A stretch of 64,000 bases of DNA from contig NC_057719.1 of NCBI RefSeq assembly GCF_004010195.1, positions 43,392,732 to 43,456,731 on the forward strand, read 5' to 3'. The stretch comes from Chiloscyllium plagiosum (taxonomy: Eukaryota). Positions 14,136 to 41,216 of the stretch are shown here, piece by piece; positions within the stretch are counted from its first letter, which is position 1, and every line of letters starts with the position of its first letter. The position numbers and the translations under genes were made by a program. The notes under the pieces were generated by a model. That model saw nothing but the letters and a program-made list of their open reading frames with translations. It made no database searches and was not told where the DNA came from.

Positions 14136-14683
14136 TGAAACAAAAACAGCCATAAAACATCAGTAAATTGGTTATGTAGCTACAATTCACCCAATAATCT
14201 ACAGAATGAACACAAGTTCAGTAGGGGTAATGGTCATGACACTTGCAACATTTAATATTTAGTGTAACCAATAATGTCCTGAAGATACAGCATGTAGAAT
14301 GCAAGTTGCTTAAACGAAACAAAGTATTGGAGACACTCAGCATGTGTAGAGAAACAGAGTCGACATTTTCAGTCCCTGTTTGTCAAGAGGTTCTGATAAA
14401 GTCACTGTTTGTCAAGAGGTTCTGATAAAGGGTCACTGGATTCGAAACATTTAATCTAGTTCTGTGTACCAATGCTACCAAACCAGAGTTCCTCCAGCAC
14501 TTTCTGCATGTGTTTCTGATTTTCAGTATCTGCAGTTGTTTGTTCATGCACGTTACTTATCTCAGTTCATCTGAAAAAAAGTGAAAGACCAACAATAATC
14601 TATTCATTCCCATGAGTTCTTCAGAAGGTGACTACAGCTTGGAATTGGTTTCAATTTTAGGAATAGGCCTTGCTCTGACATTA

Positions 14684-14813
14684 GGCGAAAGTGAGTACTG
14701 CAGTTGCTGGAGATTAGAGTCAGGAGTGTGGTGCGGGAAAAGCACAGCAGGTCAGAGCAGCATATGAGGAGCAGGAGAATCAACGTTTCGGGCAAAAGCC
14801 CTTCATTAGGACT
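14684..14813 (-). mobile_element. 130-bp hammerhead-headed PLE-derived element with 15-bp TSD
   Basis: TSD CTTGCTCTGA(C/T)ATTA at 14669-14683 and 14814-14828; minus strand begins AGTC CTAATGA A GGGC TTTT GCCC GAAA CG TT GATTC. Confidence 0.8.
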
Positions 14814-15091
14814 CTTGCTCTGATATTACATATACATCTAGAGGACCCACAACAGCTGTTTCCTATACTACTGAATTGGTGAGGGCACCTTTCTGTAGCA
14901 AAGGAAAGATAAAAGATCTTTTAAGACGATAAATTTTAGGGGAATTAGGAGTAGGGTTAATCTATTAGGGCAACATGGAATAGAGTGGAAGCGACTCCTA
15001 TACAGCATAAAGATTGATACTGTCCGTCTAGCTTGTTTCAGGAAATTCAGGCATCACCACGAACACAAAACTAGTGCAGAGGCGAACTTTA

Positions 15092-15996: not shown

Positions 15997-16042
15997 AAAC
16001 AAAATCCATACTCCTGCCACCCTTGTTGCGATTCCAGGTCAG

Positions 16043-16227
16043 TGAAAGTGAGGACTGCAGATGCTGGAGATCAGAGTCGAGAGTGTGGTGCTGGAAAAGC
16101 ACAACAGGTCAGGTAGCATCAGAGGAGCAGGAAAATCGACCCTTCGAGCGTTTGCCCAAAATGTCACTTTTCCTGCTCCTCAGATGCTGCCTGACCTACT
16201 GTGCGTTTCCAGCACCACACCCTTGAC
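16043..16227. mobile_element. Degenerate palindromic PLE-derived element
   Basis: Inverted arms of the same tail family; decayed ~16-bp flanking repeat (16027-16042 / 16228-16243, 3 mismatches). Confidence 0.7.
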
Positions 16228-16615
16228 TGCAATTCCAGTTAAGCTGAATATGCTTGTAATATGGTCTTGTACAAGATGCCTTTGGATAGAGTCAAACTTC
16301 AACATTTGTTTCCTCACTATACAGAATCAAACTATTTGACAATATACAGACACACCATATATATATGTTTTTTAAAATGAAGAATGTATACTTTTAAAAT
16401 AAAGAGAATGCATCTTGCTGTGTAGTAGGGTAACTGCTTGGTCCAACATGGTACAGGAAACCACTTCCTTGGCTCAGTAGAATAGACATTTGTATTGGAA
16501 CAAGTATATTTCATGATAGCAACTAATTTCATACACGAGCTACATTGAATGCTGTGCGCTTTTATTCCCATTTTCCATCGTCTGTCAGGTTTAATCTGGA
16601 TATTAATAGCCCCAA

Positions 16616-17388
16616 CTGAAAATGTGTTGCTGGAAAAGCGCAGCAGGTCAGGCAGCATCCAAGGAGCAGGAGAATCGATGTTTCGGGTATGAGCCCTTCT
16701 TCAGGAATGAGGAAAGTGTGCCAAGCAGGCTAAGATAAAAGGTAGGGAGGAGGGACTTGGGGGAAGGGCATTGGAAATGTGATAGGTGGAAGGAGGTTAA
16801 GGTGAGGATGATAGGCTGGAGTGGGAGTGGGGGCAGAGAGGTCAGGAAGAAGATTGCAGGTTAGGAAGGTGGTGCTGAGTTCGAGGGTTGGGACTGAGAC
16901 AGGGTGGGGGAGGGGAAATGAGGAAACTGGAGAAATCTGAGTTCATCCCTTGTGGTTGGAGGGTTCCTAGGCGGAAGATGAGGCGCTCTTCCTCCAGCCA
17001 TCATGTTGCTATGGTCTGGCGATGGAGGAGTTCCAAGGACCTGCATGTCCTTGGTGGAGTGGGAGGGGGAGTTCAAGTGCTGAGCCACGGGGTGGTTGGT
17101 CTGGGTGTCCACCTTCCTAACCTGCAATCTTCTTCCTGACCTCTCTGCCCCCACCCCCACTCTGGCTTCTCACCCTCACCTTAATCTCCTTCCACCTATC
17201 ACATTTCCAACGTCCCTCCTCCCTACCTTTTATCTTAGCCTGCTTGGCACACTTTCCTCATTCCTGAAGAAAGGCTTATGCCCAAAACGTTGATTCTCCT
17301 GCTCCTTGGATGCTGCCTGACCTGCTGCGCTTTTTCAGCAACACAATTTCAGCTCTGATCTCCAGCATCTGCAGTCCTCACTTTCTTC
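16616..17388 (-). mobile_element. 5'-truncated Penelope-like element with inverted terminal repeat, GIY-YIG C-terminus and 15-bp TSD
   Basis: Minus strand HPVAQHLNSPSHS..DMQVLG (frameshift) ...LEEERLIFRLGTLQPQGMN; ~250-bp inverted arms, each with a hammerhead motif; TSD TATTAATA(G/C)CCCCAA 16601-16615 / 17389-17403. Confidence 0.88.
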
Positions 17389-19504
17389 TATTAATACCCC
17401 CAAGGTAATTCTAACAACAGAATATGCCCAATTTTTTTTATTAAAGCAAATTCCACTAAATAATGCAAATGTCTTCCCAAATTATGCTTATACTCACAAA
17501 ATGAACCCTTTTATGCAAAATTGTCTGAAGATCGGACTAGAACAGGTGATCAGTGTGCTCAGTCTCAACTTCTAGGCATCGATCAAATGACCTCTTCCCA
17601 AAGCAAGCTGATTTTTGCTGTGAGGCAAAGCCCTTCTTTGTACTCTTTCCAGAAGCTATGTATTTACACTCTTGACGTTGTGCAATCTCCAGCAAAATAT
17701 CAGTTTGGAAACACATCATAAGTATGTCATTTTCCACACTGGTTTGATTAATGAACTCATTAAGACTTGCTAGTGTCTCCTAGGAAAGAGGCTGAAAGCT
17801 TGCTCTTAATGAACTCTGAACTCGGCTTAGTTTACGGACTCTGATCACTTTTATGTCAGGCAATTAACAGTATGATATTTGTACAGCACAATTCCATTAA
17901 AATTCAGCTGAAAAATAGTCAGACCCGATTCATTCTTTTAAACAAAATTTCAACTTGAGTTACTGTGACAATTCAGTCAATTACTGCTGAGTTACAAAAT
18001 TTGATGTAAACACACATTCCTGAGCAAATCAGACGCACTTTAAAATCAATGACATCTTTAAACCCCAGGCTTTATATGTTTCTCCATTCTGTACCCCAGC
18101 TTTTCTGCTCCTGAACGTTAAATTCACTTGTGACTTTTGTACCATTCCAGCCACCCTCTCACCTTTCAGCCTCAATTAAGGTCAGTACAGTCGACATAAC
18201 TGTGCGTCCTTACTCTCATAGAAGTTCCATTAAGCCATCATCCATGTACTGACTGGCCTACATTAGTCTATATTGAGTGCAGCAACTCAATTTAAAGATT
18301 CTCACCCTCATTCTTAAATGATTTCACCCCAATTTCTTCAAACTATACAAGCCATCAAATCTTTGCACTTGTCCAGAACAGTCGAAATCGATCTCCAGAC
18401 TTTATGTTTCTTAAATGTTCACCAAGTTCTCTCTCTTTGACCAAGCATTTTTTCATCAGACTTGATATCTAATTCAGTGTCATATTTGATAATGAATTAC
18501 TGAAGCATTTTGAAATGTTCTTTCTTGAAGGATTTATAATACAAATGAATTTATAATACTATCCACTGATTTACTAGTTGGTGTTCATGATTTTTTCATG
18601 CAGAGGGTGATGAGTATATGGAATGAGCTGCCGGAGCCAGTGGTGGAAGCTGGTACAATTACAACATTTAAAAGGCATCTTGATGGGTATTTGAATAGGA
18701 AAGGATGTGGGCCAAATGCTCAGAAAGCTGATTACAGGTTGTTCTGCTCTAAGACACATTTCCTCAATGTGAATTCACTGTAACATGATTGATGAATTAG
18801 GAATGCTGTTCCTAAAGCACGAACTTTTAAAACATGTGTTGGCTATAATGTATTAGATCGCCAACACTTTAAGTGCGATTTTTCTACAGTGCAGGGTTGC
18901 ACAAGACCAAATGTATACTTATTTAGGATATCTGGTCATCTGTTTCCATGCTTGTACAATTCTATTACTCTAAGTCTACTCTGTAGGTTGTGCACTGTTT
19001 CCTCAGTGTAGACAAGTTCATAATCACATGGTAAACTCGAGAAACATCTTACCTGTTTCAAATAGCAAATGGAACAAATCAAAGATCATCAAATCACTAC
19101 TATATTCAATGATCTAGATTTACCTCATCCATCATGCACTGGCATACAAGATGCATTAGTAAGACAATGGAGATTATTAATGATATCTAGTTACCTTTCC
19201 CAAGAAATACCGTACTATCCATTCTGTACAGTCTACCCCTCAGTAACAAGAATATAACTGACCTATTACAAACACAATATCCTCAACAATCAAATGCAAA
19301 ATGCCACATTTTCCATTCCCTTACATATATAGCCAGGTCTTAACTGTTTCAGTCATACTTCCAGCTGAGGGCTGAGTATGTCATCCAAATTGTCAAGGCC
19401 TACCAATTCTTCTAAGGAAACCTTTTCAGAATAAATTTACGATTTGCATCTCTCAACATGAAAATCTTCAATAAGGTTTGACTCTTATGCAAAGATGAAA
19501 ACAT

Positions 19505-21838: not shown

Positions 21839-21974
21839 CTGTAAATAAAGAGATGAAATTCTAGTCAGAATTCCTTCCAATTAATTAAGTTGAAATGACA
21901 AAAACATGAAATTGAGAATTCAACAGAACAATCATTAGTAATTGTAAACCTAACAACAATGAAGCAAATAAAAA

Positions 21975-22150
21975 CCCGAAAGAGCTGTGGATGCTGTAAA
22001 TCAGAAACAAAAACCGAAATTGCTGTGAAAGTTCAAAACGGGGGTTCAGTTCTGAGGAAGGGTGATTTGATCTGAAATAGTAACTCTGATCCTTCTCCAC
22101 AGATGCTGCCAGACCTGTTCAGCTTTTCCAGCAATTTATGTTGTTGTTTT
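21975..22150 (+). mobile_element. Older PLE-derived element with decayed hammerhead (22048-22085); relatives at ~14290-14545, ~7200-7320, ~30335-30450
   Basis: AGTT CTGAGGA A GGGT...ATCT GAAA...AACT followed by CCACAGATGCTGCCAGACCTG tail. Confidence 0.6.
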
Positions 22151-23749
22151 TGTTTGTAATAGTTCAATGTTCAGGCAGGAATCCACTTCAAGAAAAGATC
22201 AGAATTGGACATTTGCAAGTGTGTTTCACACAAATTATATCACTGAAAAATTACACAACTTATATTAGGATAAAAGTGAAAAATAGCAGGAATACCTGCA
22301 GGAAAACTAAGTAGCACATTGTGCAATGTGGAACTAAACCAACTAATGGGAAGATATTAGGTTCAATCTTTTTATTTTTCCTTTATGGGATGTGAGCAGT
22401 TATTAGATGACAAACATTTTATACCCATCCCAGGCTATCTTTTGAGTCACCTTCTGAACTACTGCAGTCCAGTGGTATAGATATACACATAGTGCCACAA
22501 AGAAGTTACAAGTTTTTGATCAAGCAACCACAAAGTACAGCAACACAATTCCAAGTCAAGATGGGAGAGGCTTGGTAGACAACTTATAGTTAGCAGTGTC
22601 CCATGTACCTGCTGTTCTTATCCTAAGTGATAGAGGTTGTAGAATTGGAAGATGGTATCAAAGGAGCCTTAGCATGTCTACTTCCCTCATTAACAAATTT
22701 GCTATCACTATCTTCCACACTTCTTCCTCTCTCTGAAGCTCCAAAACACTGATCTTGAATTGCTCCAGCTGGAGGCATTGCCTGCACACATTGTTATCCA
22801 GACTGCCAGGACAGTTGAGGGTTTCCCAGATAGTGCAAGATGTGAAAATCACAGGCCTGAGCTCCCAAACATACTTTAACTAAATAGAAAATAGACTTTT
22901 GCTTTTATTTTACATTTACTCCTATAAAAAAATCTTATTCCTGCTTATAGACAATAGAGTTCCACTTAGGGAAACTGGAAATTAGGTCTTCACAGTTGGT
23001 AATCTCTGGATTACTTACCTTGCCCACTCTTATTGACGATGGTGTCTGCCTTTCACAGGGTCCTCTTAATGAGGTAGGGCTCTCATTATGCAACGATCAA
23101 ATGGATGATTCAACCCGGTTTGTCAGACTAGTGAGTTATTGGTTTTATAATAGTTACAAAACTAGTGCCAAGCAGTGATCATCTTGAAAAAGAGAGAACC
23201 TAATCTGCTTATCTCTATATTCTATTGTATTACCACCCTTGAATTGTCCATCAGCTGCATTCTTAAGTTTCAAAGATTTAACTATTTCACACAAATACTC
23301 TGGCTGCAAGAGCAGGACAGAGGCTGGGAATTCTCAAGTAACTCATCTTCTGACTTTCCAAAATCTATCCACCATCTACAAGGTACATTTCAGGAAAACT
23401 GTGATGGAATACTGTCTCCACTTATCTGTATGACTGCAGCTCCAACACTTCAGAGGCTCAATGCAATTCAGTACAAAGCAATCCACTTAAATTGCATCGT
23501 CTACCATCTTAATGCTTTCTCTTCCTCCAGCATGCGGGAATAGCGGCAGCAGTATATATCAGACGCACTGCAACAACTTGCTAAGGCTCCTTTGACACCA
23601 TTTTCCAAATCTACAACCTCAATCACTTAGGATGTCATGGAACAGTTGCAGGGCATTCTGAAGCAGAAGGGTGAACAGCCAGTGACCATGATCCACATTG
23701 GCAGCATATGGAATATATTTTAATGACACTGGGTTAAAGATAAACAATG

Positions 23750-23974
23750 AGGAGAAAGTGAGGTCTGCAGATGCTGGAGATCAGAGCTGAAAATGTGTTG
23801 CTGGAAAAGCGCAGCAGGTCAGGCAGCATCCAGGGAACAGGAGAATCGACATTTCGGGCATAAGCCCTTCTTCAGGAATCCTTAAGAAGGGCTTATGCCC
23901 GAAACGTCGATTCTCCTGTTCCCTGGATGCTGCCTGACCTGCTGCGCTTTTCCAGCAACACATTTTCAGCTCAG
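23750..23974. mobile_element. Near-perfect palindromic PLE-derived element with two back-to-back hammerhead motifs and a 15-bp TSD
   Basis: Arms 23784-23877 and 23879-23972 (94 bp, 2 mismatches, 1-nt loop); TSD TAAAGATAAACAATG at 23735-23749 and 23975-23989. Confidence 0.92.
23843..23882 (-). ncRNA. Minimal type-I hammerhead ribozyme motif (sense in SOS2 pre-mRNA)
   Basis: GGATTC CTGAAGA A GGGC TTAT GCCC GAAA TG TC GATTC: intact core and stem II, GUC triplet. Confidence 0.68.
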
Positions 23975-24830
23975 TAAAGATAAACAATGTTTTGCAAACA
24001 GACTTTAAGGAGTTAGATAAGAAACTGGAAATTAGGTCTTCAAAGCTAGTAATCTCTGGATTATTCCTGTTGTCATGCAGTAGCGAGCAGATGAACGGGT
24101 GGCTAGACAGATGGTGCAGGAGGGAGTTGACTTTATATTCCTGAGGCATTGAGGCTGTTTCCAGAGGGATTGGGAACTGTACAAGTAGAATGAGTTACAT
24201 CTGAACAAGAAAATGACGAACATCCTCACAGGAAGGTTTGCTAAAACCGTTGCTTTGGATTTAAACTAGATTGACAGGGGGAATGGGATCCCAACAGATA
24301 AGGAGCCATTAAGATGGAATTATTTGTTAAAATACAAACAAGCGAATCTGGAAGGCAGAGAAAACTTAAGCTGGATAAGAAGGATGGGAGTTTAACAAAT
24401 ATATGGTGTACATTTTAATGTAAGGTGCCTGAGGAATAAGACAGACAAGTTGAGGGCACAGAAGGTGAGTATGATATGGTAGCTATAGTTATGAATGAGA
24501 TTTGACTGAAAGGCAGACAGGATTGGCAGCTCAGCATTCTTGGTTACCGGGTATTCAGATAAGAGTGTGTCGAATAGAGGAGGCAAGGGAGGGGCAATCA
24601 TATTGATCAAGCAATCAGTGATTTCTTGGAAAGATCATCAAATGTGTCCATATGCATAAGAGCCAAGATCACAAAAAGGGCAATCATTGCTGGAAGTTTA
24701 CTACAGATCTCTAAACAGTCATGGAAAGATGGAGGATCAAGTATGTAATATTACTACACTTCTCTGAAATTTTAAGGCAGTAATAATATTAAGGGATTTT
24801 AGCCACCCAAATAGTATCCAGGATACTGGT

Positions 24831-25680
24831 TGGGGTGACTTTGGTTTTGGCTTGAAGGTATCAGACATTTAATCATTTCCCACAGGTTCTGTAAATTAGC
24901 TCCACTCCAGTGAGGAGCTGGTTGGCAATGAGATCAAGCATTGCAACAAAGTAGACCAAGAATAGTGTTGGGGCAGTGATGCATCCCTGCTTGACACTGG
25001 TCCAAATGTTGAATGATGCCTGCATATATGCATTCCTAGAGCACTGTCAGCACCTTTAGGAGGCACGTGAGAGCATGGGCCTCATCCTGAATATGCACAA
25101 GACGACGGTCCTCCATGAACCTGGCTCGGCGCTGTGGAGTGAACCTCAATCATTAAGGTTCATGGGGAGACCTTAGAGAATGTTGATCACTTCCAACACC
25201 TTGGGACCATCGTGTTGGCCAAAGCAACTATTTAAGATATCCAGCACCACATCCACTGTGGTGGCGCAGCCTTCGGTCACCTGAGGAAAGGGATCTTGGA
25301 GGACAACAACATCAGATCCAACACCCAGATCATGATTTAAAGAGCTGTGGTGGCTTCTGCCTTCCTATATGTTTCTGAGATGCGGAATGTCTGCAGCAGA
25401 CAACTCAAGGTGCTGGAACAGTACCACCAAAGCTGCTTGTGTAAGATCCTGTGAATCTGCTGGGAAGACAGACACACTAACACCAATGTTCTTGATCAGA
25501 CCAACATCCCCAGCATCGAGGCACTGACCATCTTTGATCGGCTTTGATGGACTGGGCACTGACACGAGACACCCCCAAGCCTGCAGTAGCCACACTGGTC
25601 TGTACAGCCACCTAAGGATTCACCCTGAGTGGAAGAGAGACATGCTCACCTCCGCCGGACTGCCAATGAATTAATGAATC
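24831..25680 (+). mobile_element. RTE (BovB-like) LINE fragment with 5' inversion
   Basis: 24831-25014 on the minus strand gives SVKQGCITAPTLF...TGVELIYRT...LQAKTKVT; 25015-25680 on the plus strand gives HGETLENVDHFQHLG and a downstream RTE C-terminal pattern. Confidence 0.75.
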
Positions 25681-26728
25681 TGGGGGATAATCTTATTATG
25701 AAATATAGGGAGGGAACAAAATTCTTAAACTGCATCTAGAATAATTTTAGCCAGTATGTAAAAAACCCAACAAGACAGGAGTAATTCTGGGCCTAATACT
25801 GGGAAATTAGCCCAATAATTGAAAGGAATATGAGTAGGGGAGCATTTTGGAGATGGTGACTATAACTCAGCTTTAGGATAATTGCGAAATAGGACAAGGG
25901 TAGGTCAGGAATAAAAGTTACAAATTGGGAAAGACGAATTTCACTGAGATAAGATACAATGTGGCCTGAGCAGATTGGGAGCAAACACTTGCAACTAAAA
26001 CAATGTTGGTGGTTGGTGGTATCCAAGGAGGACATCGCAAGAATTAACGGCCAATAAATTCCCATTATAGCGAAGTTTGGGACCAAGACTGGAAATTCTA
26101 ATTTTCAAGGGGCATAAAGGTCAGGATGATGAAATCAAGTCAAAAAAAAAGTTTATGGCTGATACCAAGAGTTCAATACAGCAAATTCTCATGAGGAATA
26201 ACAAGTGCAAGGGGAAATTTAAAAAGAAAATTAGGAAAACAAAGAGAATGTATGAGAAAGCATTGACTGGTAGAACAAAGGAAAATCCAAAGGTTTTGTT
26301 TAATGCATGAAGAGTGGGGGAAGAAAAAACTATGGAATAAGTAGTGCCCATTAGAAACCATATAGTTAATGTATGTGTGGACCCAGAAGATGCGGACAAT
26401 GAATACTTTACGTTTGTCTTCACAATGGAACAGGTCGCATCAGGTATAGACATCAGGATAGAAGACTAGGCTTGGATGAGATGTCTCCTCGGTTGTTGAG
26501 GGAAGCATGGGAAGAGATATCAAAAACCCTAGTGGTTTGCAAATTCTCTCTGGCCACTGGTGTACTTCCAGAGGACTGGAGAACTGTTAATGTTGTCCCA
26601 TTATTAAAAAAGGAAGGAAGGGATAGACCGGGAAATTACAGCCCAGTCAGTCTAATCACGATGGTATGGATGAATTCTGAGGGTTGGATCATTTCTATGC
26701 TTGGAGAGACAAGGATTAATCAGGGATA

Positions 26729-26810
26729 TGATTTGGAGCGTCGCTCTGAAAGCTAGTGTGCTTCCAATTAAACCTGTTGGACTATTACCTGGTGTTGTGT
26801 GATTTTTAAC
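26729..26810 (+). mobile_element. 82-bp PLE 3'-end insertion with 13-bp TSD
   Basis: TSD TTAATCAGGGATA 26716-26728 / 26811-26823; insert matches ~40855-40930. Confidence 0.85.
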
Positions 26811-27414
26811 TTAATCAGGGATAGTCAGCATGGATTTATTTCGAGAGGGTTGTATTTGAGAAATTTGATCAAATATTTTGAGGAGTTAACTAGGAATACT
26901 GAAGAGGGCAATGCATTTGATGTGGTATTTTTACTGTGTGTCTTGAAATAATTGTTGATTTCCTCACCACCTGCCACAGGCTCATTCTGGCATCTCTGTT
27001 TTGCAGGATTCAGCGCATTTGGTCAGTAAAGATACAACCAAGGTGAACAATGAAATCTTCCAGCTTGTGTACATTCTGTGCCCTTGCCACCCTTAAAGCT
27101 TTTTCCAATTGGTGTTCAGCATAGAGGAATACTGATTTAGATTCATCAGCAGCTGCTGGGGCGGGGGGTGTTCTAGGATATGGCCAGTGATGGTAATGCT
27201 GCTTGCCGCGTGGTACATAGTCACATCACAGAATCACAACAGACTGTAAGGCTATTGATCGAGTATATTGTGCAACAACTCTCCAAATGTTGGCACAAGC
27301 CTTCAGCAGTCGGTAGGTTAGACTTATTCCTAAACAATGTAATGGAAGTTCAATGAAGAAGGAAAGTGTTATTTCAGTATGATTTCACATTGTACCACGA
27401 GATACTTTCTTTAC

Positions 27415-27834: not shown

Positions 27835-29210
27835 CAAAGGAGTGCAAGGTTAAAGGTGGATAAATCCCCTGGACCAGATCAAGTGTACCCGAGAACTCTG
27901 TGGGAAGCTAGAGAAGTGATTGATGGGGCCTCTTTCTGAGATATTTGTATCATCGATAGTCACAGGTGAGGTGCCGGAAGACTGGAGGTTGTCCAACGTG
28001 GTGCCACTGTTTAAGAAGGGCGGTAAAGACAAGCCAGGGAACTATAGACCGGTAAGCCTGACCTCAGTGGTGGGCAAGTTGTTGGAGGGAATCCTGAGGG
28101 ACAGGATGTACATGTATTTGGAAAGGCAAGGACTGATTAGGGATAGTCAACATGGCTTTGTGCATGGGAAATCATGTCTCAGTTGTGAAACTTGAAAGGG
28201 TTCAGAATAGAATTACAAGGATGTTGACAGGGTTGGAGGATCTGAGNNNNNNNNNNNNNNNNNNNNNNNNNNNNNNNNNNNNNNNNNNNNNNNNNNNNNN
28301 NNNNNNNNNNNNNNNNNNNNNNNNNNNNNNNNNNNNNNNNNNNNNNNNNNNNNNNNNNNNNNNNNNNNNNNNNNNNNNNNNNNNNNNNNNNNNNNNNNNN
28401 NNNNNNNNNNATAAATGTGAGGTGCTGCATTTTGGGAAAGCAAATCTTAGCAGGACCTATACACTTAATGGTAAGGTCCTAGGGAGTGTTGCAGAACAAA
28501 GAGACCTTGGAGTGCAGGTTCATAGCTCCTTGAAAGTGGAGTCACAGGTAGATAGGATAGTGAAGAAGGTGTTTGGTATGCTTTCCTTTATTGGTCAGAG
28601 TATTGAGTACAGGAGCTGGGAGGTCATGTTGTGGCTGAACAGGACATTGGTTAGGCCACTGTTGGAATATTGCGTGCAATTCCGGTCTCCTTCCTATCGG
28701 AAAGGGGCTGTGAAACTTGAAAGGGTTCAGAAAAGATTTACAAGGATGTTGCCAGGGTTGGAGGATTTGAGCTACAGGGAGAGGCTGAACAGGCTGGGGC
28801 TGTTTTCCCTGGAGCGTCGGAGGCTGAGGGGTAACCTTATAGAGATTTACAAAATTATGAGGGACATAGATAGGATAAATAGACATAGTCTTTTCCCTGG
28901 GGTGGGGGAGTCCAGAACTAGAGTGCATACGTTTGGGGTCAGAGGGGAAAGATATAAAAGAGACCTAAGGGGCAACTTTTTCACAGAAGGTGGTACATGT
29001 ATGGAATGAGCTGCCAGAGGATGTGGTGGAGGCTGGTACAATTGCAACATTTAAGAGGCATTTTGATGGGTATATGAATAGGAAGGGTTTGGAGGGATAT
29101 GGGCTAGGTGCTGGCAGGTGGGACTAGATTGGGTTGGGATATCTGGTTGGCATGGACAGGTTGGACCGAAAGATCTGTTTCCATGCTGTACATCTCTATG
29201 ACTCTATGAT
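27835..29210 (+). mobile_element. CR1 (HER1-like) LINE spanning an assembly gap
   Basis: VPEDWRLSNVVPLFKKGGKDKPGNYRPVSLTSVVGK, RPLLEYCVQF; CTCTATGA tail. Confidence 0.92.
28247..28410. other. Assembly gap (164 N)
   Basis: Run of N. Confidence 1.
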
Positions 29211-30995: not shown

Positions 30996-32472
30996 AAAAC
31001 AACGATCTAAGTATGGTTTTAGTCTTAGTGGCAAAGAACCCCATAAGAACATAAAAGAAATGGGTTTATTGTGTGTTTACCTTCGAATAGATTAGCTAAC
31101 AGAGCAACAAATACTCAGAATTTGAAACTGCATCAGCAAGAAATGAAGGTGAGAGTAGCAAGAATAAATGTTCTTAACCTACTGGATGGTGGCAGCAGGA
31201 CAGATGCAAAAATGGTGTTACTACCTGTAAAAGAAAATGACAAATGGTTTAAAAATGTCACCAGCAATTAAGTTGTAATCATATTTAAGTTATACAAGAA
31301 CTGCAATATGTGGCCATGTTTTAGGATACAGTGATTTATATAAATGGATTGTCTAAAACTTGAAACTTTTAAATTCTATTCTGCATAACACAATTAAGTT
31401 ATAAATTATGTTCGATGGTGTAAATTCTGCCAATCCTGCCTCAGTGAATGTCACATATTTCAACATCAAAGTAATATAACTATTAAGTTGTCTGATCTCC
31501 CACCCAGCCTGACCTGGAGACAACAGTAGTCTCAGTCTGAACCAGGGAGAGAAGCACTTTGGGGATTGGTAAGTGTAAGATAGCAGGATAAACAGGGGAA
31601 CTGAGCTTCAGAAATGAAATTAACAACCTTTGGATCTTCAGAGAAGTGATGGCTCAAAACATTAATAAACAAGAAATTGCTGGAAATTGTTTTAAGAGTT
31701 TTTTTTTAAACAGTAGTTTGGTGTTACAGCGAGATTTAATACTTTTTATCTCAAACGTTAATCTTTTTCACAGTCCTCTATAGAAGGTTTTAAGCTTAAT
31801 ATTTAGCTGGGTCAGAAGGTATTAGGGTGACCAACAAGCCAACATGAAATATAATACTATATGACATAGCAGTTAATTTATGACAGTTTGGTTGATCTTG
31901 GGCATAGTCAGTGTTAAAGACTAGTCTAATTCATTTAACACATCTGTTATTTCAGCAAAATAGAACTATTTTTCAAATACTTATGTCACAGCTTTGTTTA
32001 TTGTGCCACCTGGCACATGTAGGAAGTGACACAAGCCTTTTAATTCAATATGTAATTTTTAGTATCTGCATAACGTTACAGCTCTAGTGTTGATGTAAAC
32101 CTATGCTTTGCATTAGGATTCAATACTTGCTAACTTAATGCAACAAAATGAACAGTAACAGTACACTTTAATTTCACTAAGTGAATGCAACTAAATGAAG
32201 GAAGCCACGTAAAGTAAATTCTCTTCAGTGCCATTTCATTGTAATTATCGGAGCAGATCATGAGAATGATCAAACATTTTGTTTTGGATATCAAGCAATG
32301 AAAAATGTATTCAAATTTATTAAAATCAGATGAATGCAATTATCTGTTAATCAACCACAGCCAGACAAAAGCAGTATTGTTACAATTAGTAAGCAGATGC
32401 TGTTGAGTCAAGAAACAAAAGCAAGCCAACAGCATGAGTGGACATTAAAAAACCCAGCATGAGCTGCCATAC

Positions 32473-32526: not shown

Positions 32527-32617
32527 CTGCAGAAGACACAGGAATAAATGAAAGTAAAAGCACAACAGCTAGAAAATCAGCCACACTTAATGTGTCTAAT
32601 TTCTGCAATGCACGTAA

Positions 32618-32834
32618 GTCAAGAGTATGTTGCTGGGAAAGCATAGCAGATCAGGCAGCATCCAAGGAGCAGGAGAATCGACATTTCGGGCATAATCCCT
32701 TCATCCTGATGAAGGGCTTATGCCCAAAATGCCGATTCTCCTGCTCCTCGGATGCTGCCTAACCTGCTGTGCTTTCCCAGCAACACACTCTCGACTCTGA
32801 TCTCCAGCATCTGCAGTCCTCACATTCTCCTCCC
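32618..32834. mobile_element. Palindromic PLE-derived element with 10-bp TSD
   Basis: Inversion centre CCCTTCATC-CT-GATGAAGGG (CTGATGA at 32706-32712); TSD ATGCACGTAA 32608-32617 / 32835-32844. Confidence 0.88.
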
Positions 32835-33260
32835 ATGCACGTAACCAAATATTTACTAATCATTGTATTTCCAGTAAGGCAATTTTCAATTTTAAAATTA
32901 ATTTTAACCGTTTCTCCTTAAAATACCAGCATTAGCTGAGAAAACATCAGGTCAAAGATTAGATTGGTTTTCCAGTGCCTCAATGTCTTCTTGTGTACAA
33001 ACAAACTGATGTTTCAGCACATACTTCAAATTAAATCTGCAACCATCTGGTCTGTTAGTAAATTAGTCAGTGTCATGACCTATGTGATTTCTGTGGCGCT
33101 ATGAGGAACACACTCAATGATTTTGAAATTTTCTTCAAAAAGATGTCTTGAGTCACATACTTGTCACTTGAAACTTTAAGGTTTTAGAAGGGCAGCTTAC
33201 TTAAGTTTATTAACCCAGTATCAATATTAATGACATGTTACAGAACAAAATGACACTCAC

Positions 33261-40840: not shown

Positions 40841-40881
40841 AACCACCTGATGAAAGAGCAGCGCTTCGAAAGCTAGTGGTT
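40841..40881 (+). ncRNA. Minimal type-I hammerhead ribozyme motif in a PLE terminal repeat
   Basis: AACCAC CTGATGA A AGAGC AGC GCTTC GAAA GC TA GTGGTT: 6-bp stem I, intact core, palindromic AGCT stem III, CUA triplet; A-C mismatch at the base of stem II. Confidence 0.7.
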
Positions 40882-41216
40882 CCAAATAAATTCTTTGGAC
40901 TATAACCTGGTAATGTATGATTTTTAACTTTGGCCACCTGAGTCCAACACCAGCTCCTCCAAATTATAAAATAAGCAAGTCACTGATTTCAATGTTATTA
41001 ATTATAAAAAGTGCAAACTAAGTTAGTGAGAAAAAAGACTTTGGGTAACAACCAACTTGACATTCTGTACAAGTTTTTATATATATTGTGTATGTAACGT
41101 AGCTAATGGAAATAATGTGCAGTCATTTACCAATACACTACAGAAGCAGGTATAATGCATAATACATTGTTAAATCACATCAAAATACTAAATTGATAAT
41201 TAGTTGTATTACCTAC

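What the first reader, a model, noticed from the sequence alone, without database searches (positions are those of the whole stretch)
23735..23989. 94-bp-arm near-perfect palindrome of two back-to-back hammerheads with a perfect 15-bp TSD
Seen: the arms differ at only 2 positions, the loop is 1 nt, and the centre falls at the 5' edge of the ribozyme core. One arm extends ~34 nt further into the tail, so this is not a classical MITE with symmetric TIRs. The long TSD fits endonuclease-primed retrotransposition. It lies in SOS2 intron 22, so the pre-mRNA would carry ~94 bp of dsRNA (ADAR/Dicer substrate, cruciform-prone DNA) that should also block folding of the nearly intact minus-strand ribozyme. 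Inference: a foldback PLE-derived family readable as the same element from either strand.
Basis: partly seen in the sequence, partly recalled or inferred. Interest (0 to 1): 0.72.

Follow-up and report, generated by a model that had tools for sequence, protein, structure and literature searches.

The report
Mirror-image Penelope retrotransposon stub in shark
This hairpin in a shark SOS2 intron is a real, young insertion of two short end-pieces of a common Penelope-like jumping gene set head to head, an already described layout, and it was likely built on the spot from two separate DNA copies of the element's RNA rather than spread as a ready-made palindrome.

Summary
A related organism holds the empty site with one TSD copy, so this is a 240-bp insertion. 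The arms are the hammerhead-bearing end of an abundant endonuclease-positive Penelope-like element (PLE): a longer copy in the window runs into a GIY-YIG coding end. A head-to-head inverted copy, a one-sided 30-40-bp tail and a TSD form the published PLE layout. A self-propagating foldback family is not supported: the window's 4 foldbacks have 4 different junctions, and all 23 inversion joints displayed from public contigs differ (symmetric junctions are hard to see there). One ribozyme has a core mutation. Editing and small RNAs could not be tested. Likely mechanism: both target nicks prime cDNA, starting 34 nt apart; the copies often stop at the hammerhead's 5' edge (possibly the RNA start) and are then joined. 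In one neighbouring copy each arm has sequence the other lacks, which simple fold-back cannot give. The scan reported this kind of element before on other shark DNA (8 notes shown). Ordinary structure; modest mechanistic interest.

The parts
23735..23749 (.). Left copy of the 15-bp target-site duplication (12 of 15 A/T)
   Evidence: single copy in the empty site of organism B
23750..23783 (-). 34-nt PLE 'tail', present on this arm only
   Evidence: family 3' ends pile up at 23750/23751 (389+194 contigs in X2) and at 23783 (112)
23784..23879 (-). Left arm: 5'-truncated PLE terminal unit, starting 4 nt before the hammerhead core at the A of an Inr-like motif
23848..23875 (-). Minimal hammerhead motif, catalytic core intact, C->U at position 15.2 (window 23851); same strand as the SOS2 pre-mRNA
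   Evidence: motif definition from PMC4209133
23878..23880 (.). Head-to-head junction, 1-nt overlap between the two arms' 5' ends
23879..23974 (+). Right arm: tail-less 5'-truncated terminal unit plus 2 non-matching nt
23881..23908 (+). Minimal hammerhead motif with core G5->U (23883), predicted inactive
23975..23989 (.). Right copy of the target-site duplication
21842..27414 (-). Host context: last intron of SOS2 (approximate bounds)
   Evidence: exon tiling with P0001
16601..17403 (.). Longer sister insertion of the same subfamily: tail-less 493-nt arm reaching the GIY-YIG coding end, tail-bearing 281-nt arm, 15-bp TSD with 1 mismatch

Best explanation
It is a 240-bp insertion of two short end-pieces of a Penelope-like retrotransposon joined head to head between a 15-bp target duplication, likely made in a single event in which both nicked target strands each primed a short DNA copy of the element's RNA. 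Shown: insertion, TSD, PLE origin, one-sided tail, variable junctions among copies. Inferred: the GIY-YIG endonuclease nicks both strands 15 bp apart. Each 3' end is extended by the RT from one of two start sites 34 nt apart, giving tail and no tail. Both cDNAs run off or stop at the hammerhead's 5' edge, which may be the RNA's 5' end. Their ends are then joined with 0-5 nt of microhomology. One private substitution per arm arose later. The copy has no ORF and is likely an inert dead end.
For: Empty site in organism B. Sister copy 16616-17108 encodes the end of a GIY-YIG domain matching P0121, an RT-then-GIY-YIG protein of Chiloscyllium punctatum (22 of 24 identical residues, then a frameshifted continuation). 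All 4 window foldbacks have the tail on exactly one arm and different junctions; a fifth TSD-flanked copy (14669-14828) has no inversion. In the 16.6-17.4 kb copy the tail-less arm reaches about 240 nt further 5' while the other arm alone has the tail, so neither can be a copy of the other. Both focal arms share two alleles absent from the other 9 window segments; one of them is under the 8% listing level in all 4 runs, consistent with one RNA source. One arm ends within -6..+9 of core C3 in 11 of 14 and 6 of 9 displayed inversion joints. In vitro, an Anolis PLE protein cleaves and extends both target strands and starts RT at two internal sites that bound the tail (PMC11167929).
Against: No experiment on this family, and no genome was available for a copy census. 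Joint tables show only 15 of 550 and 15 of 59 joints. In one search the reference itself ends at the hammerhead edge, which inflates that cluster; symmetric junctions are largely invisible in both calls. For the focal copy alone the tail-bearing arm is the longer one at the junction, which also fits fold-back self-priming, the published interpretation (PMC3846280). The Inr-like motif is weak evidence: 5 matches in the 281-nt monomer, background 0.013 per position. Shared alleles could also come from gene conversion between arms or from one active subfamily.
Confidence: 0.65

Rival explanations
1. Fold-back self-priming: one cDNA (or an antisense template) is made, its end folds back at a short microhomology and copies itself, giving the second arm.
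For: Published interpretation of PLE head-to-head palindromes (PMC3846280 Discussion). Focal arms are nearly identical and the tail-bearing arm is 2 nt longer at the centre. The 16.0-kb copy turns inside the hammerhead's own stem II hairpin.
Against: The 16.6-17.4 kb copy has arm-specific sequence on both arms. A 1-nt loop is a poor primer hairpin (inference). It needs a separate rule to stop the second arm 34 nt short of the end.
Confidence: 0.18
2. Self-propagating foldback family: the palindrome is itself the mobile unit, transcribed and re-inserted, and readable from either strand.
For: Near-symmetric junctions recur: the 32.6-kb copy turns within about 4 nt of the same point, and X5 has a 91-nt contig crossing a similar centre with 8 differences. 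Arms share minority alleles.
Against: Those similar junctions sit in copies about 9-12% diverged and are not identical. All 23 displayed joints differ. Arm lengths form a graded series and a non-inverted copy exists. A 94-bp RNA duplex would likely bury the RT start region (inference).
Confidence: 0.1
3. Deletion remnant: a longer inverted PLE insertion collapsed after integration by cruciform cleavage or recombination between arms.
For: Longer inverted copies exist (16616-17389), and long palindromes are unstable (general knowledge).
Against: The insertion is young (1 private change per arm; absent in organism B). A non-inverted copy at 14.7 kb has its 5' end at the same base, which deletion between arms cannot explain.
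Confidence: 0.05
4. Assembly artefact (hairpin chimera).
For: No locus-identical contig spans the centre; no long reads were available.
Against: Oppositely oriented outer junctions appear in X2 and the right one in X5 from another study; perfect TSD; empty site in organism B; arms not identical.
Confidence: 0.02

Closest known systems
Insertions of endonuclease-positive Penelope-like elements with inverted pLTR, tail and TSD (Pen2a_Av of Adineta vaga, PMC3846280; general scheme PMC8557442 Fig. 2 legend)
   Same: Head-to-head inverted 5'-truncated copy, 30-40-bp tail on one end only, TSD, hammerhead in the terminal repeat.
   Different: No ORF at all between the repeats; arms of only 94-130 nt; TSD 15 bp versus 8-10 bp in the A. 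vaga examples read; junction clustering at the hammerhead's 5' edge is not mentioned in the passages read.
Poseidon PLE of Anolis carolinensis (PAc) in vitro (PMC11167929)
   Same: Two RT start sites bounding the tail; both target strands cut and extended; AT-rich target; uncleaved hammerhead RNA used as template.
   Different: The main text read does not describe joining of two products into a palindrome. The shark element may belong to another clade (Neptune-like linker, inconclusive).
Minimal hammerheads of metazoan PLEs (PMC4209133)
   Same: Core motif, extra nt between 9 and 10.1, G10.1-C11.1 pair, no helix III, palindromic 15.2-16.2 in the family majority.
   Different: Those are proposed to work as tandem same-strand dimers; here the two motifs lie on opposite strands and one core is mutated.
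Non-LTR retrozymes (PMC7229834, listing only; bioRxiv 10.64898/2026.07.22.740005, abstract and passages)
   Same: Short, non-coding, hammerhead-bearing, PLE pLTR-related.
   Different: Retrozymes are tandem head-to-tail arrays; this is one inverted pair between a TSD.
L1 twin priming (recalled, not read here)
   Same: Two priming events from the two nicks give an inversion within a TSD.
   Different: In L1 the second primer anneals internally and only one part holds the 3' end; here both arms hold the same terminal unit.

Membership tests
EN+ Penelope-like element insertion | Terminal unit belongs to an element coding RT followed by a C-terminal GIY-YIG endonuclease | tested here: met
   Indirect: the sister copy (120 of 130 nt identical over the unit) continues into sequence matching residues 306-359 of P0121. 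P0121 has RT motifs then GIY-YIG (Pfam GIY-YIG E=0.0046, below the curated cut-off). The focal copy has no ORF.
EN+ Penelope-like element insertion | Two cysteines between GIY and YIG (CCHH motif) | tested here: met
   Read in relative P0121; definition PMC8557442. This part is not present in the window.
EN+ Penelope-like element insertion | Minimal hammerhead in the terminal repeat | tested here: met
   Motif in window copies; majority letters give an intact core. No Rfam hit. Cleavage not tested.
EN+ Penelope-like element insertion | Inverted 5'-truncated copy adjacent head to head | tested here: met
   PMC8557442
EN+ Penelope-like element insertion | 30-40-bp tail at one end only | tested here: met
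   34 nt; 4 of 4 window foldbacks; two 3'-end pile-ups 33 nt apart
EN+ Penelope-like element insertion | Target-site duplication at an AT-rich site | tested here: met
   15 of 15 identical, 12 of 15 A/T; empty site
Neptune/Nematis clade of PLE | CX2-5CxxC zinc finger in the RT-EN linker | tested here: inconclusive
   P0121 shows a CxxC in the linker but no clear first cysteine; no RT tree built
MITE (class II) | Symmetric terminal inverted repeats at both element ends, related to a DNA transposon | tested here: not met
   Outer ends differ by the 34-nt tail; sequence derives from an RT/GIY-YIG element
Non-LTR retrozyme | Tandem head-to-tail hammerhead-bearing units | tested here: not met
   Only direct repeat at the locus is the TSD; hammerheads lie on opposite strands
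Self-propagating foldback family | Identical central junction at many loci | tested here: inconclusive
   Not met among 4 window foldbacks and 23 displayed joints, but symmetric junctions are poorly visible in contig lays and no genome was held
ADAR/Dicer substrate | A-to-I edits or 21-23-nt reads from the hairpin | not testable with these tools
   Raw RNA run X22 laid 0 of 8,328,510 reads, which is no test; contigs mix many thousands of copies

The most novel reading that the evidence does not exclude
These stubs are the genomic footprint of PLE 'double strong-stop' integration. A dimeric RT-endonuclease primes both target nicks at once, one subunit at each of the two start sites, copies only the RNA leader up to a transcription start just in front of the hammerhead, and the two cDNA ends are joined. 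This would explain in one step why PLE inverted repeats are head to head and why the tail is on one side only, replacing the published antisense self-priming idea. Abundant young shark copies would make it testable from sequence alone.
Probability: 0.45. Interest if true: 0.5.

Novelty: new member of a known kind. Interest (0 to 1): 0.2.

Why it matters
As a locus it matters little: it is one of very many copies, and four such hairpins lie in this 64-kb window alone. As a class it bears on an open point, how PLEs make their inverted ends, which PMC8557442 calls still undefined. Minimal, young, TSD-bounded copies with known empty sites are clean records of single integration events, and their arm ends can discriminate twin priming from fold-back. 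They would also be a large source of intronic dsRNA in sharks; Penelope inverted repeats yield siRNAs in transgenic Drosophila (PMC3681739, passages), but this is untested here.

Tried and rejected
Whole-genome census: no genome held. Rfam at gathering threshold: 0 hits; at E<=10, 8 hits, of which the one at the locus is a generic miRNA-hairpin match far below its cut-off (33.6 vs 104 bits), rejected. RNA evidence: no RNA holder listed; X22 laid 0 reads; X7 and X17 are only guessed to be RNA and are contigs, so nothing is concluded on expression or editing. Idea that arms end at the hammerhead cleavage site: 4 of 23 displayed joints have an end at +28/+29, but by inspection three of them can be explained by short microhomologies (helix I, or a motif in the older subfamily), so it is not claimed. 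Protein searches with short pieces of the broken ORF: Pfam 0 hits for the 81-aa frame; no hit for the 52-aa piece; no usable Atlas hit; one unnamed 81-aa hit, not followed; P0121 has no PDB relative. Literature: searches for Penelope+hammerhead+shark, Penelope+palindrome+non-autonomous+MITE+shark, Penelope+twin priming, Penelope+Chiloscyllium and Neptune+pLTR+transcription start+strong-stop listed no paper describing this shark family or twin priming for PLEs, judged from listings only. The library lacks most subscription papers, and Repbase/Dfam were not searchable, so the family may already be catalogued. Supplements were not read; those of PMC11167929 (Figs S1-S2) may bear on junction structure.

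Full report
Observation. The palindrome is as described. Arms 23784-23877 and 23879-23972 are 94 nt long, 98% complementary, with 1 nt between them, and a 15-nt direct repeat lies at 23735-23749 and 23975-23989. The mismatches are 23851/23905 and 23873/23883; the left arm has 34 extra nt and the right arm 2. A contig of organism B (run X14) joins 23629-23734 straight to 23975-24200, that is, the empty site with one copy of the repeat. Flank divergence is 16 of 466 nt. This establishes a 240-bp insertion with a true TSD. Contigs of organism A carry the outer junctions: both in X2 (which may be the source sample) and the right one in X5 from another study, though with only 21-27 nt on the element side. 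No locus-identical contig across the centre was displayed.

Host context. A 211-aa exon translation is 100% identical to SOS2 of Chiloscyllium plagiosum, so the host is a bamboo shark or close relative. Tiling that protein gives 16 coding segments on the minus strand; the insertion lies in the last intron, between about 27415 and 21841. That is intron 22 or 23 depending on a 13-codon mini-exon (numbering recalled from human SOS genes).

What the arms are. The unit is a very abundant repeat: 83,965, 51,035 and 63,380 contigs were laid from three runs (this is not a copy number). The window holds other copies. These are a long foldback at 16616-17389 with a 15-bp TSD (1 mismatch), foldbacks at about 32.6-32.8 kb (10-bp TSD) and 16.0-16.2 kb (11 bp, 1 mismatch), a non-inverted copy at 14.7 kb (15 bp, 1 mismatch), and two longer non-inverted fragments. 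The long copy's upstream part encodes the end of a GIY-YIG endonuclease. It matches P0121, an RT-then-GIY-YIG protein of C. punctatum, at 22 of 24 residues and continues in another frame. [quoted passage not shown] The arms are therefore the terminal unit of an EN+ Penelope-like element. Clade assignment (Neptune-like linker) is inconclusive.

Ribozymes. The family majority reads as a minimal type I hammerhead as defined in PMC4209133 (passages; letters). Rfam does not detect it. In the focal copy the plus-strand core has G5->U, where about 97% of family depth has G, and is predicted dead. The minus-strand core is intact, with a C->U at 15.2. It is of little consequence, since a single minimal motif tested in PMC4209133 showed no detectable cleavage.

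Is the foldback the mobile unit? Probably not. The four window foldbacks have four different junctions and arm lengths from about 80 to 490 nt. Of 15 joints displayed out of 550, 14 are inversion-type and all differ; of 15 displayed out of 59, 9 are opposite-strand and all differ. The limit is that a symmetric junction like the focal one is not shown as a joint and is likely hidden in hairpin contigs, so its genome-wide frequency is unmeasured, and no genome was held. Near-symmetric junctions do recur, in the 32.6-kb copy and in a 91-nt X5 contig with 8 differences. They occur in diverged copies, which fits repeated formation at a preferred point better than descent from one master.

Mechanism. 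Shown: two preferred 3' ends about 33 nt apart (389+194 contigs at 23750/23751 and 112 at 23783 in X2); tail on exactly one arm in 4 of 4 window foldbacks; two alleles shared by both focal arms and absent from the 9 other window segments; and a preferred inner end. One arm ends within -6..+9 of core C3 in 11 of 14 and 6 of 9 displayed joints, and none of the 9 ends in the 150 nt upstream that the reference offered (the figure is inflated by the reference ending there, and upstream depth is lower). The focal left arm and the non-inverted 14.7-kb copy both start at the same A, four nt before C3. In the young subfamily that A is the +1 of an initiator-like motif (consensus recalled; 5 matches in 281 nt, so weak). 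The most informative copy is 16616-17389: its tail-less arm reaches about 240 nt further 5', into the coding end, while only the other arm has the tail. Neither arm can be a fold-back copy of the other, so two cDNAs are needed. From the literature: an Anolis PLE protein, predicted to be a dimer, cleaves and extends both target strands, starts RT at two internal sites that bound the tail, prefers AT-rich targets and uses uncleaved RNA (PMC11167929, main text parts 1-2 of 4). Inferred: both nicks prime, the cDNAs stop at or near the RNA's 5' end, and they are joined with little microhomology (0-5 nt at the joints; 1 nt here). The rival, self-priming on an antisense template (PMC3846280 Discussion), cannot be excluded for the focal copy alone.

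Comparison with what is known. An inverted 5'-truncated copy next to the unit and a 30-40-bp tail often at one end only are described as typical of PLEs (PMC8557442, passages). Pen2a_Av has an inverted pLTR, a 31-bp tail and a 9-bp TSD (PMC3846280, passages). The finding meets every PLE-insertion feature tested and fails the MITE and retrozyme tests. Penelope inverted repeats give siRNAs in transgenic Drosophila (PMC3681739, passages), so the dsRNA idea is plausible and precedented, but it could not be tested: the one raw RNA run laid 0 of 8,328,510 reads. Five literature searches (listings only) showed no description of this shark family or of twin priming in PLEs; repeat databases were not available.

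Earlier scan notes. A look-up by sequence returned nothing. A look-up by words returned 8 notes on the same kind of shark element, 2 from this genome and 6 from others, most proposing twin priming or run-off at the RNA start. My reading recorded before that look-up was a PLE stub joined at insertion. I wrote down the twin-priming and RNA-start steps only afterwards, so those notes are credited as shaping that wording, and they are not independent support.

Verdict. Real, young, and an instance of a known structure. Interest 0.2. The mechanistic reading has probability about 0.45 in its full form and would deserve about 0.5.

Noticed in passing
window 16601-17403: Long asymmetric foldback of the same young subfamily (493-nt tail-less arm including the GIY-YIG coding end, 281-nt tail-bearing arm, 15-bp TSD with 1 mismatch); the best single argument for two separate cDNAs.
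   Followed up: yes
window 32608-32844: Older-subfamily foldback with a 10-bp TSD lying about 80 nt upstream of the acceptor of a small SOS2 exon (about 32524-32471, minus strand); a hairpin this close to the branch-point region could affect splicing.
   Followed up: partly
window 16027-16238: Older foldback whose turn lies inside the hammerhead stem II/loop II; 11-bp TSD with 1 mismatch.
   Followed up: partly
window 14669-14828: Non-inverted tail-bearing copy with a 15-bp TSD (1 mismatch) whose 5' end is at the same base as the focal left arm.
   Followed up: yes
window 40843-40885 (+): A minimal hammerhead motif with a different stem II and a 4-bp helix I, probably from a second PLE family; no TSD or inverted arm found nearby.
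   Followed up: partly
window 21999-22155: Diverged inverted repeat (38 nt, 76%) around a decayed hammerhead-like motif at 22052, about 160 nt into the last SOS2 intron from the final exon; probably an old PLE family.
   Followed up: no
window 31184-31222 (-): 13-codon mini-exon of SOS2 present in the C. plagiosum isoform X1 protein; it shifts intron numbering.
   Followed up: partly
window 22620-22677 and 23576-23633: 58-nt inverted pair (91%) 898 nt apart in the same intron, from another repeat; a second possible dsRNA stem.
   Followed up: no
public contigs laid on 23750-23783 and 17355-17386: Joints that go back about 31-33 nt from the tail end, i.e. copies with a tandemly doubled tail.
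   Followed up: no
window 28247-28410: 164-nt N gap inside a LINE-like reverse transcriptase fragment; several more such fragments at about 26.4, 37-39.6, 48-49.9 and 61.8-63 kb (CR1-like by recall).
   Followed up: no
run X22: A raw RNA run carrying the same species label laid 0 of 8.3 million reads on a repeat that draws tens of thousands of contigs in other runs; it may be mislabelled or filtered.
   Followed up: no
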